Part shown: positions 7,973-8,152 of the stretch, in pieces | How the letters are laid out: the number at the start of each line of letters is the position of its first letter | Position numbering within the stretch: position 1 is the first letter of the stretch | Virus record (IMG/VR): IMGVR_UViG_2703718872_000004 | Source: a virus | Taxonomy: Duplodnaviria; Heunggongvirae; Uroviricota; Caudoviricetes | Length of the DNA stretch: 9,076 nucleotides | Direction: 5' to 3' (one strand) | Notes under the pieces: generated by a model | What the model saw: the letters and a program-made list of their open reading frames with translations, nothing else | What the model was told of the DNA's origin: nothing | Databases searched by the model: none | Made by a program: the position numbers and the translations under genes

Positions 7973-8152
7973 CTAAACGAGCGGCTCTTCGGGTTTGCTT
8001 CCGGCTGACTGACTGGCGCTGATTTTCTCAGCGGCCCTTTTGTCAATCTGTCTGCGCCAGAAGTCACGCATGGCCCGGTATCCACCCGAAAGGAGATACA
8101 GCACACAGACCACCGTACAGAAGTACAGCATTAACTGGTTCAGAAATGTCAT
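7973..8152 (-). CDS. Candidate small membrane protein, 59 aa (MTFLNQLMLYFCTVVCVLYLLSGGYRAMRDFWRRQIDKRAAEKISASQSAGSKPEEPLV); not in the ORF track
   Basis: Hand-translated codon by codon. ATG at 8152 with GGAAAG SD ~7 nt upstream. One hydrophobic helix, then a basic juxtamembrane segment and polar tail. Confidence 0.4.
   Translation of the reverse strand: MTFLNQLMLYFCTVVCVLYLLSGGYRAMRDFWRRQIDKRAAEKISASQSAGSKPEEPLV

What the first reader, a model, noticed from the sequence alone, without database searches (positions are those of the whole stretch)
7973..8152. Uncalled 59-codon ORF encoding a single-TM micro-protein just upstream of the lysis cassette
The ORF has an ATG with a GGAAAG Shine-Dalgarno, one hydrophobic helix (LMLYFCTVVCVLYLL), a basic juxtamembrane stretch (RAMRDFWRRQIDKR) and a polar tail. 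That architecture is shared by type I toxins, small holin-like proteins and lysis modulators. It sits between a moron gene and the terminator that precedes the holin, a position where lambdoid phages keep lysogenic-conversion or lysis-timing cargo. It was missed by the track's length cutoff and competes with an implausible GTG-initiated extension of the next gene in another frame.
Basis: partly seen in the sequence, partly recalled or inferred. Interest (0 to 1): 0.6.

Follow-up and report, generated by a model that had tools for sequence, protein, structure and literature searches.

The report
Known small phage membrane gene (DUF1378)
The 59-codon ORF is a real, conserved gene for a one-helix membrane protein, but it belongs to an already catalogued family of unknown function (Pfam DUF1378) that travels with the cell-lysis genes of temperate phages of enteric bacteria.

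Summary
The ORF at 7973-8152 (minus strand) exists as described. It is not new: it matches Pfam DUF1378 end to end (E=3.9e-39), and RefSeq annotates it as 'DUF1378 family protein' in Shigella phage POCJ13 (99.9% identical DNA) and in 1,004 of 5,426 complete E. coli genomes. It is protein-coding: 91/91 related loci keep it intact, and dN/dS is 0.09-0.27 in this frame against >1, with stops, in the other two. The GTG-extended reading of the next gene is not supported. The protein is predicted to be one long helix: an N-terminal membrane span with N-out/C-in topology, a basic juxtamembrane stretch, and a disordered tail. No functional study was found. New here is the context. In Stx-type phages the order is always nanS-p, DUF1378, DUF826, terminator, pinholin S, SAR endolysin R. 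In Klebsiella, Lonsdalea and other Enterobacterales prophages the homologue is the last gene of a holin-endolysin-spanin cassette, usually overlapping the upstream stop codon by 4 nt. The best reading is a late-expressed accessory inner-membrane protein of the lysis module. The type I toxin reading is unlikely, and resemblance to Mu releasin is architectural only. An antisense sRNA-like gene of the EcOnc33/PasA type lies immediately upstream.

The parts
7973..8152 (-). DUF1378 coding sequence (59 aa, ATG..TAG): the ORF of the finding
   Evidence: ORF list and sequence. Pfam PF07125, residues 1-59 of 59, 133 bits, E=3.9e-39. PHROG 494. Annotated 'DUF1378 family protein' in NC_025434 and in E. 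coli RefSeq genomes. dN/dS 0.09-0.27.
8158..8163 (-). Shine-Dalgarno GGAAAG, 5 nt upstream of the ATG
   Evidence: Sequence. A purine-rich SD is retained at the same spacing in all five intergenic sequence types.
7687..7932 (-). DUF826 gene (81 aa, acidic, helical N-terminal half): invariable downstream partner in the E. coli branch
   Evidence: Pfam PF05696, E=3.5e-38. Always follows DUF1378 after a 25/37/40-nt gap. Rare natural DUF1378-DUF826 fusions P0135 and P0140.
7648..7677 (-). Intrinsic terminator-like hairpin plus T-run between DUF826 and holin S
   Evidence: Terminator scan: 13-pair stem, T6. The hairpin is conserved across alleles with compensatory stem variants; the T-run is weak in a minority.
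7394..7609 (-). P21-type pinholin S (71 aa, starts MYQMEKI)
   Evidence: Pfam PF04971, E=9e-33; PHROG holin families. Annotated as holin in NC_025434.
6856..7389 (-). SAR-type lysozyme R (177 aa)
   Evidence: ORF. Annotated as lysozyme in NC_025434. PF00959 in the homologous loci.
8288..9076 (-). 3' part of nanS-p (SASA-family sialate O-acetylesterase; DUF6645 C-terminal domain), upstream neighbour
   Evidence: Pfam PF20350, E=1.2e-74. Annotated as SASA family carbohydrate esterase.
8171..8286 (+). Antisense sRNA-like gene. Its promoter is TTGACA (8171-8176), 17 nt, TTAAAA (8194-8199); the transcript would run from about 8205 to 8286 and end in hairpin 8252-8278 plus T7. It is not part of the ORF, but its -35 box lies 19 nt upstream of the ATG.
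   Evidence: Weak full-length Esr41-like Rfam hit, 23.8 bits against a gathering score of 102. Fold -20.3 kcal/mol, z=-3.39. Same promoter and terminator architecture as EcOnc33, PasA and PasC. Promoter -35 and terminator conserved across mosaic intergenic types.

Best explanation
The ORF is a functional gene for a DUF1378-family protein: a bitopic inner-membrane protein of about 60 residues. It has 2-3 periplasmic residues, one transmembrane helix ending in a conserved (S/A)-G-G-(Y/W) motif, a basic amphipathic juxtamembrane helix in the cytoplasm, and a short variable tail. It is an accessory component of the phage lysis module. In this Stx-type phage it would be transcribed late, on the Q-antiterminated pR' transcript that also carries stx, nanS-p and the S-R-Rz lysis genes. 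It would insert into the inner membrane together with the pinholin and the SAR endolysin. Most likely it tunes the membrane step of lysis (timing of holin triggering or endolysin release) rather than killing the cell by itself. Shown here: the gene is real and under purifying selection, the helix and charge distribution are as stated, and its physical linkage to lysis cassettes is conserved. Inferred: late expression, the topology (from the positive-inside rule), and any effect on lysis timing. The direction of such an effect is unknown.
For: Family membership is full-length. The ORF is intact in 91/91 loci, variable sites by codon position are 27/18/43, and pairwise dN/dS is 0.09-0.27 with dS up to more than 1.5, while the shifted frames give omega 1.3-4.4 and contain stops. 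A hydrophobic helix and a 0-versus-4 K/R asymmetry predict N-out/C-in, and AF2 predicts a helix over residues 2-50. In E. coli and Shigella the order is always nanS-p, DUF1378, DUF826, hairpin-terminator, P21 pinholin, lysozyme. Klebsiella-type prophages and phage OM816835 have pinholin, SAR lysozyme, Rz/Rz1-like, DUF1378, with the ATG overlapping the upstream stop. A Lonsdalea prophage has lambda-S holin (PF05106), soluble lysozyme, Rz (PF03245)/Rz1, DUF1378. Among 43 dereplicated divergent loci, the -2/-3 same-strand neighbours include 31 endolysins and 34 holins of four families. In 29 of the 43 loci there is a 4-nt overlap with the -1 ORF, and all 29 of those ORFs have an N-terminal TMD. 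Linkage that survives different gene orders, holin types and endolysin types argues for a shared lysis-related role.
Against: No experiment on any DUF1378 protein was found, so the lysis role rests on guilt by association. The protein is dispensable for lysis in principle, since EPEC prophages PP2 and PP5 have nanS-p and lysis genes without it. In the Stx-phage branch it lies upstream of a terminator that separates it from S, in the moron-rich region, which fits cargo unrelated to lysis equally well. Its partners vary (four holin families, three endolysin families), which argues against a specific protein-protein partner and leaves the target undefined. No sigma-70 promoter for the gene was found, but the simple scan also missed the antisense promoter, so that negative result is weak.
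Confidence: 0.55

Rival explanations
1. It is a moron or lysogenic-conversion cargo gene: a small inner-membrane protein made in the lysogen that benefits the host or prophage (for example superinfection exclusion or envelope-stress tolerance) and is only physically parked beside the lysis genes.
For: In the Stx-phage branch it sits in the known moron insertion zone downstream of stx and nanS-p. A conserved hairpin-terminator separates it from S. It is surrounded by mosaic, recombining sequence and an sRNA gene. Up to 7 copies occur per E. coli genome.
Against: In the other genera the gene is translationally coupled (4-nt overlap) to the last spanin gene of the lysis cassette, so it must be made with the late lysis proteins there. 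No own promoter was detected. It matches no known defence family (PADLOC).
Confidence: 0.22
2. It is a type I toxin whose antitoxin is the divergent antisense sRNA encoded immediately upstream (EcOnc33/PasA-like). The sRNA would pair with the 5' leader of the toxin mRNA and block its translation.
For: The protein is small and hydrophobic. All E. coli-branch alleles carry an antisense sRNA-like gene whose -35 box lies 12-20 nt from the ATG and whose transcript is complementary to the upstream leader of any sense transcript. The Sp6 version, EcOnc33, is an abundant Hfq-bound RNA of about 71 nt.
Against: The sRNA does not overlap the ORF or the SD. The same sRNA type occupies the same position in EPEC PP2 and PP5, which have no DUF1378 gene. 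29 of 43 dereplicated DUF1378 loci outside the E. coli branch have no upstream intergenic region at all and so no such sRNA. The conserved 35-residue cytoplasmic portion and strong purifying selection over the whole length are unlike typical type I toxins. PasA and Esr41 are described as trans-acting regulators of core genes (PMC8550237, PMC5286369).
Confidence: 0.05
3. In the Stx-phage branch, DUF1378 is the membrane anchor of a two-part unit with the acidic protein DUF826. Together they would be a functional analogue of the Mu releasin gp25 (TMD plus anionic cytoplasmic domain) that promotes or controls release of the SAR endolysin.
For: DUF826 always follows DUF1378. Natural single-chain fusions exist (P0135, P0140), and PHROG 8301 matches both proteins. 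The predicted topology, the basic residues at the membrane-cytoplasm junction and a position close to an endolysin gene match the published description of gp25 (PMC9239132).
Against: Neither DUF1378 nor DUF826 shows detectable homology to gp25 (hhalign probability 0.2% each). DUF826 is absent from the other branches. The fusions are rare and look like indel products. DUF1378 also occurs with soluble, non-SAR endolysins.
Confidence: 0.12
4. It is a chance ORF, and the true gene is the 139-codon GTG-initiated extension of DUF826 in the +1 frame.
For: The +1 frame is open for 45-66 codons upstream of the DUF826 ATG in all lineages, and some gene callers and PHROG 8301 use it.
Against: Omega in that frame is 1.3-1.85, against 0.1-0.25 in the DUF1378 frame. 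A synonymous-resampling null shows that an open +1 frame of this length is expected (P=0.14-0.75). DUF826 has its own conserved ATG and upstream context.
Confidence: 0.01

Closest known systems
Pfam PF07125 (DUF1378) / PHROG 494
   Same: Full-length, high-scoring member (133 bits; profile positions 1-59 of 59). Identical or near-identical proteins are already annotated under this name in phage and E. coli RefSeq records.
   Different: Nothing differs. The family has no assigned function, and no paper found in the searched library reports any experiment on it.
Phage Mu gp25 'releasin' (DUF2730; PMC9239132)
   Same: Small type I (N-out/C-in) bitopic protein with almost no periplasmic part, basic residues at the TMD-cytoplasm junction, encoded within a few genes of the endolysin, and found with both SAR and soluble endolysins. 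There is local similarity at the junction: SGGY-RAMRD here, AGGAVWAMRR in gp25.
   Different: No detectable homology (hhalign probability 0.2%, 11 columns). The cytoplasmic part is about 35 residues and net basic, against 73 residues and anionic in gp25. DUF1378 occurs in lambdoid and other temperate phages that do encode holins, whereas Mu has none.
Antiholins and lysis-timing regulators (S21-71 of phage 21, T4 RI, P1 LydB, P2 LysA)
   Same: Non-essential small membrane proteins encoded in or beside the lysis cassette that modulate when the holin triggers.
   Different: No sequence relationship. DUF1378 co-occurs with four unrelated holin families, which is unusual for a holin-specific antiholin, and no interaction data exist.
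Type I toxins (Hok, TisB, ZorO and similar)
   Same: Peptide of 60 residues or fewer with one hydrophobic helix, and a small antisense RNA gene next to it in the E. coli branch.
   Different: It has a conserved 35-residue cytoplasmic extension, the sRNA does not overlap the ORF or SD, toxin and sRNA are not co-inherited, and in other genera the gene is translationally coupled to spanin genes.
EcOnc33 / PasA / PasC prophage sRNAs (for the adjacent plus-strand element)
   Same: Same position (between the nanS-p stop and the next late gene), same antisense orientation, invariant TTGACA -35, a similar -10, and an intrinsic terminator that abuts the nanS-p stop codon.
   Different: The body sequence differs (mosaic 'type A'). 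It gives only a sub-threshold Esr41-like Rfam hit, and no expression data for this variant were found.

Membership tests
Pfam DUF1378 (PF07125) | HMM score above the curated gathering cut-off (25 bits) over the full model | tested here: met
   133.1 bits, E=3.9e-39, residues 1-59 aligned to profile positions 1-59 of 59.
Pfam DUF1378 (PF07125) | Conserved core: N-terminal hydrophobic helix, (S/A)GG(Y/W), basic x-x-(I/V)R motif | tested here: met
   Alignments A1-A4 show L9, F11, V15, L18, L20, G23, G24 and D37 invariant across the E. coli and Klebsiella branches.
Type I toxin-antitoxin | Small hydrophobic toxic peptide | tested here: inconclusive
   The protein is small with one TM helix. Toxicity cannot be tested here.
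Type I toxin-antitoxin | Antisense RNA complementary to the toxin mRNA translation-initiation region or leader, acting on it in cis | tested here: inconclusive
   The plus-strand sRNA-like gene spans about 8205-8286. It would be complementary only to the leader 53-134 nt upstream of the ATG, not to the SD or ORF.
Type I toxin-antitoxin | Toxin and antitoxin RNA inherited together as a module | tested here: not met
   PasA and PasC occupy the same site without DUF1378. In 29 of 43 dereplicated loci outside the E. coli branch, DUF1378 overlaps the upstream gene by 4 nt, leaving no room for an sRNA.
Type I toxin-antitoxin | Own promoter giving a stable toxin mRNA in uninduced cells | tested here: inconclusive
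   The consensus scan found no sense-strand promoter, but the scan is crude. A real test needs RNA-seq or 5' RACE.
Holin | Match to a holin family, or being the only candidate membrane-lesion protein of the cassette | tested here: not met
   No holin family hit in Pfam or PHROGs. A recognised holin is encoded alongside it in every sampled E. coli-branch locus whose downstream region was annotated and in 34 of 43 other loci.
Holin | Small membrane protein with a charged C-terminus encoded in a lysis cassette | tested here: met
   This feature is generic and not sufficient on its own.
Releasin (Mu gp25, DUF2730) | Sequence or profile homology to DUF2730 | tested here: not met
   hhalign probability 0.2%, E=0.29. 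No PF10805 hit.
Releasin (Mu gp25, DUF2730) | N-out/C-in bitopic topology, minimal periplasmic part, basic residues at the junction, gene near the endolysin | tested here: met
   Prediction only: 2 residues before the helix, and 4 K/R in the 15 residues after it. The gene lies 1-3 genes from an endolysin. The criteria are taken from PMC9239132.
Releasin (Mu gp25, DUF2730) | Anionic cytoplasmic domain of about 70 residues | tested here: not met
   The cytoplasmic part is about 35 residues, and the whole protein has net charge +3. Only the separate neighbour DUF826 is acidic.
Releasin (Mu gp25, DUF2730) | Required for release of a SAR endolysin | not testable with these tools
   Needs genetics and lysis curves.
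Anti-phage defence systems (PADLOC) | Match to a known or candidate defence protein model | tested here: not met
   No hits at E up to 1 for DUF1378 or DUF826.

The most novel reading that the evidence does not exclude
DUF1378 could be a previously unrecognised fifth component of Enterobacterales phage lysis cassettes. It would be a generic, releasin-like or antiholin-like inner-membrane regulator that sets lysis timing. In Stx phages, possibly acting with DUF826, it would thereby influence when and how much Shiga toxin is released.
Probability: 0.2. Interest if true: 0.65.

Novelty: already known. Interest (0 to 1): 0.33.

Why it matters
As an object it is ordinary: a catalogued, routinely annotated DUF gene present in about a fifth of complete E. 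coli genomes. What remains open is its function. It sits in the late operon that controls lysis and Shiga-toxin release, and its homologues are built into lysis cassettes across Enterobacterales. A measurable effect on lysis timing would therefore add a component to the holin-endolysin-spanin paradigm and could bear on toxin release from STEC. The test is cheap: a deletion, an induction and a lysis curve.

Tried and rejected
1. Scanning genome contigs with the single peptide returned pattern hits but no confirmed relative. The alignment-based rescan gave one locus, from Lonsdalea.

2. Literature searches for DUF1378 (2 papers, passing mentions only) and for Sakai and EDL933 locus tags found no functional data.

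3. Dual coding or programmed +1 frameshifting into DUF826 was considered. The reasons were the constant +1 frame relation (gaps of 25/37/40 nt), the open upstream frame and two natural fusions. It was rejected because a synonymous-resampling null gives P=0.14-0.75 for the open frame, and omega in that frame exceeds 1.

4. Homology to Mu releasin gp25 was rejected for both DUF1378 and DUF826.

5. Defence-system membership was rejected. No NCBIfam model matched. No relative has a solved structure.

6. Identity of the plus-strand element with Esr41 was rejected. The score is 23.8 bits against a gathering score of 102, and the real Esr41 is encoded in SpLE1 (PMC5286369).

7. A fold search of the AF2 model was not run, because a single helix gives meaningless matches.

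Full report
**Observation.** The window is the late region of a Stx-type lambdoid phage, read in reverse orientation. The 801 bases around the finding are 99.9% identical to Shigella phage POCJ13 and 95-98% identical to many Stx1- and Stx2-converting phages. On the minus strand the genes run as follows:
- the 3' part of nanS-p, 9076..8288
- the 59-codon ORF, 8152..7973
- DUF826, 7932..7687
- a hairpin plus T6 terminator, 7677..7648
- the P21-type pinholin S, 7609..7394
- the SAR lysozyme R, 7389..6856

An ORF of this length is not in itself unusual: the window holds 26 ATG-ORFs of at least 59 aa, against 13.8 +/- 3.1 in shuffles.

**It is a known, annotated family.** The peptide matches Pfam DUF1378 (PF07125) over the whole model (133 bits, E=3.9e-39) and PHROG 494, whose function is listed as unknown. 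RefSeq annotates the same gene as 'DUF1378 family protein' in POCJ13. It does the same in E. coli genomes: 1,004 of 5,426 complete genomes carry the ORF at 80% nucleotide identity or better, with a median of 2 and a maximum of 7 copies. The word-indexed protein search found 123 clusters (clustered at 90% identity), and every source-given name listed was from Escherichia or Shigella. An exhaustive profile search of 1.84 billion representatives found only 36 hits at E of 0.001 or lower. The members that carry names come from Klebsiella/Raoultella, Pantoea, Mangrovibacter, Erwinia and Escherichia, plus one Lonsdalea prophage.

**It is protein-coding in this frame.** All 91 related loci examined keep an intact 58-60-codon ORF, with 22 distinct DNA alleles. 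Variable sites by codon position are 27/18/43. Pairwise Nei-Gojobori dN/dS is 0.09-0.27 for every pair, including pairs with dS above 1.5. The two shifted frames give omega 1.3-4.4 and contain 2-5 stops. The rival 139-codon GTG extension of DUF826 lies in the +1 frame, and that frame stays open 45-66 codons upstream in all lineages. A null model that resamples synonymous codons shows this is expected (P=0.14-0.75). Two database proteins are DUF1378-DUF826 fusions (P0135, P0140), and they look like sporadic indel products. I found no support for dual coding or programmed frameshifting.

**Anatomy of the protein.**
- The hydropathy maximum is 1.98 over residues 3-21.
- There are no K/R before the helix and four in the 15 residues after it. 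By the positive-inside rule this predicts N-out/C-in, with only 2-3 periplasmic residues.
- AlphaFold2 on a 13-sequence alignment gives one continuous helix over residues 2-50 and a disordered tail. pLDDT is 86-88 over the membrane part, about 76 to residue 40 and about 60 to residue 50.
- The family-wide core is a TM helix, then (S/A)-G-G-(Y/W), then x-x-(I/V)-R-(N/D)-(Y/W), followed by a variable Ala/Lys/Glu-rich tail of 10-45 residues.

**Context is the main functional clue.** In every E. coli/Shigella locus whose flanks were annotated, the order is nanS-p, DUF1378, DUF826, hairpin-terminator, P21 pinholin, lysozyme. The hairpin shows compensatory stem variants. Outside this branch the gene sits elsewhere but still among lysis genes:
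- In phage OM816835 and in Klebsiella prophages the order is P21-type pinholin, R-like SAR lysozyme, a 176-aa Rz-like protein with an embedded lipobox ORF, then DUF1378 with its ATG overlapping the upstream stop. The pinholin is unannotated in the GenBank record.
- In a Lonsdalea prophage the order is a lambda-S-type holin (PF05106), a soluble lysozyme, Rz (PF03245) with Rz1, then DUF1378 (63 bits) with the same 4-nt overlap.
- Among 43 dereplicated loci of the divergent branch, the -2/-3 same-strand neighbours include 31 endolysins (27 PF00959, 3 GH19, 1 GH108). They also include 34 holins (25 PF04971, 4 PF05106, 4 PF16080, 1 PF05449).
- In 29 of those 43 loci the ATG overlaps the stop of the -1 ORF by 4 nt, and all 29 of those -1 ORFs have an N-terminal TMD. 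A crude regex found an embedded lipobox ORF in 14, and some of these hits look spurious.

Linkage that survives different gene orders, four holin families and three endolysin families argues that DUF1378 is an accessory lysis-module protein made with the late lysis proteins.

**Mechanism.** From established knowledge of Stx phages, stx, nanS-p and S-R-Rz are transcribed from pR' under Q antitermination. The ORF lies within that transcript, so late expression is the default inference. I commit to this reading: a late, bitopic inner-membrane accessory protein that tunes the membrane step of lysis. Whether it speeds or delays lysis is unknown.

The closest functional analogue is the Mu releasin gp25. 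Published features of gp25 are N-out/C-in topology, almost no periplasmic part, a basic pair at the junction, a position within five genes of the endolysin, and pairing with both SAR and soluble endolysins (PMC9239132). There is no detectable homology between gp25 and either DUF1378 or DUF826. DUF1378's cytoplasmic part is also short and basic rather than long and anionic. So this is 'may work like', not 'is a member of'.

**Rivals.**
- **Moron or lysogenic-conversion protein.** This remains possible for the Stx-phage branch, where a terminator separates the gene from S. It fits poorly with the translational coupling to spanin genes seen in other genera.
- **Type I toxin.** This is unlikely. 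The adjacent antisense sRNA does not overlap the ORF or the SD. The same sRNA type occupies the same site in EPEC PP2 and PP5, which lack the gene. Most non-E. coli homologues have no upstream intergenic region at all.
- **Other databases.** PADLOC, NCBIfam and PDB searches gave nothing.
- **Literature.** No experimental paper was found.

**Side finding: an antisense sRNA-like gene.** Directly upstream on the plus strand lies an sRNA-like gene. Its promoter is TTGACA (8171-8176), 17 nt, TTAAAA. The transcript would run from about 8205 to 8286 and end in hairpin 8252-8278 plus U7 (fold -20.3 kcal/mol, z=-3.39). The intergenic region occurs in about five mosaic sequence types. All keep the antisense -35 (one variant carries a point change) and a GC hairpin with an A-run abutting the nanS-p stop. 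The Sp6 type is EcOnc33: its published Northern probe maps to the sense strand of the ECs_1527/ECs_1528 intergenic region. PasA and PasC share the position, orientation and promoter. Rfam gives only a sub-threshold Esr41-like hit, and the real Esr41 is encoded in SpLE1.

**Verdict.** The object is already known as a family and is ordinary as an annotation. Its function is uncharacterised. The comparative evidence makes a lysis-accessory role the best hypothesis, and that hypothesis is cheaply testable.

Noticed in passing
window 8171-8286 (+): An antisense sRNA-like gene lies between the nanS-p stop and the DUF1378 ATG. Its promoter is TTGACA-17-TTAAAA, the predicted RNA is about 80 nt with a 5' stem-loop, and it ends in terminator hairpin 8252-8278 plus U7 (z=-3.39). 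It is a positional and architectural homologue of EcOnc33 (Sakai Sp6) and of PasA/PasC (EPEC). Rfam gives only a sub-threshold Esr41-like hit, which shares the UUUUCUCCAU stretch. No expression data for this sequence type were found, and no EcOnc is listed at the equivalent Sp5 site.
   Followed up: partly
window 8153-8287; loci L004-L092, about 170 nt upstream of the ORF: The nanS-p/DUF1378 intergenic region occurs in about five unrelated mosaic sequence types. All keep three features: the antisense TTGACA (one variant carries a point change), a GC hairpin with an A-run abutting the nanS-p stop, and a purine-rich SD. The pattern is a conserved promoter and terminator around a hypervariable sRNA body.
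   Followed up: partly
window 7933-8106 (-), and proteins P0135 and P0140: DUF826 is always in the +1 frame relative to DUF1378 (gaps of 25, 37 or 40 nt), and that frame is open 45-66 codons upstream. Rare database proteins are DUF1378-DUF826 fusions, and PHROG 8301 matches both. A resampling null shows the open frame is not significant.
   Followed up: yes
window 8000-8026 (-), codons 43-51 of the ORF (KISASQSAG): Synonymous variation is almost absent here, even between alleles whose 5' halves have dS above 1. The likely cause is a shared recombination segment (mosaicism), but an extra nucleotide-level constraint is not excluded.
   Followed up: no
L094 (OM816835.1, 'Stenotrophomonas' phage vB_SmeS_BUCT709) 2721-2936 and 3697-3891: The GenBank record lacks the P21-type pinholin gene (71 aa) just upstream of its lysozyme, and also an embedded Rz1-like lipoprotein ORF (lipobox LVGC). 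Its DUF1378 protein is identical or 88-96% identical to homologues in K. pneumoniae records and unnamed metagenome contigs, and the cassette layout matches a K. pneumoniae prophage. This raises a question about host assignment or recent transfer.
   Followed up: partly
window 7648-7677 (-) and the equivalent site in L004-L092: The hairpin between DUF826 and S is kept through compensatory stem changes in at least four stem variants. The T-run is degenerate in the Sp6-like alleles. This suggests a conserved insulator between the moron side and the lysis genes.
   Followed up: partly
window 7394-7684 (-): The mechanical 96-aa ORF over-extends the holin. The true S start is MYQMEKI at 7609. The 3-residue N-terminal extension ahead of the second Met has no basic residue, unlike MKS in phage 21 S71 (recalled from memory), and some alleles read MNQM.
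   Followed up: no
E. coli complete genomes: The ORF is present in 1,004 of 5,426 genomes, with up to 7 copies per genome and 10 copies on plasmids. This reflects the multiplicity of lambdoid prophages in STEC and EPEC.
   Followed up: no
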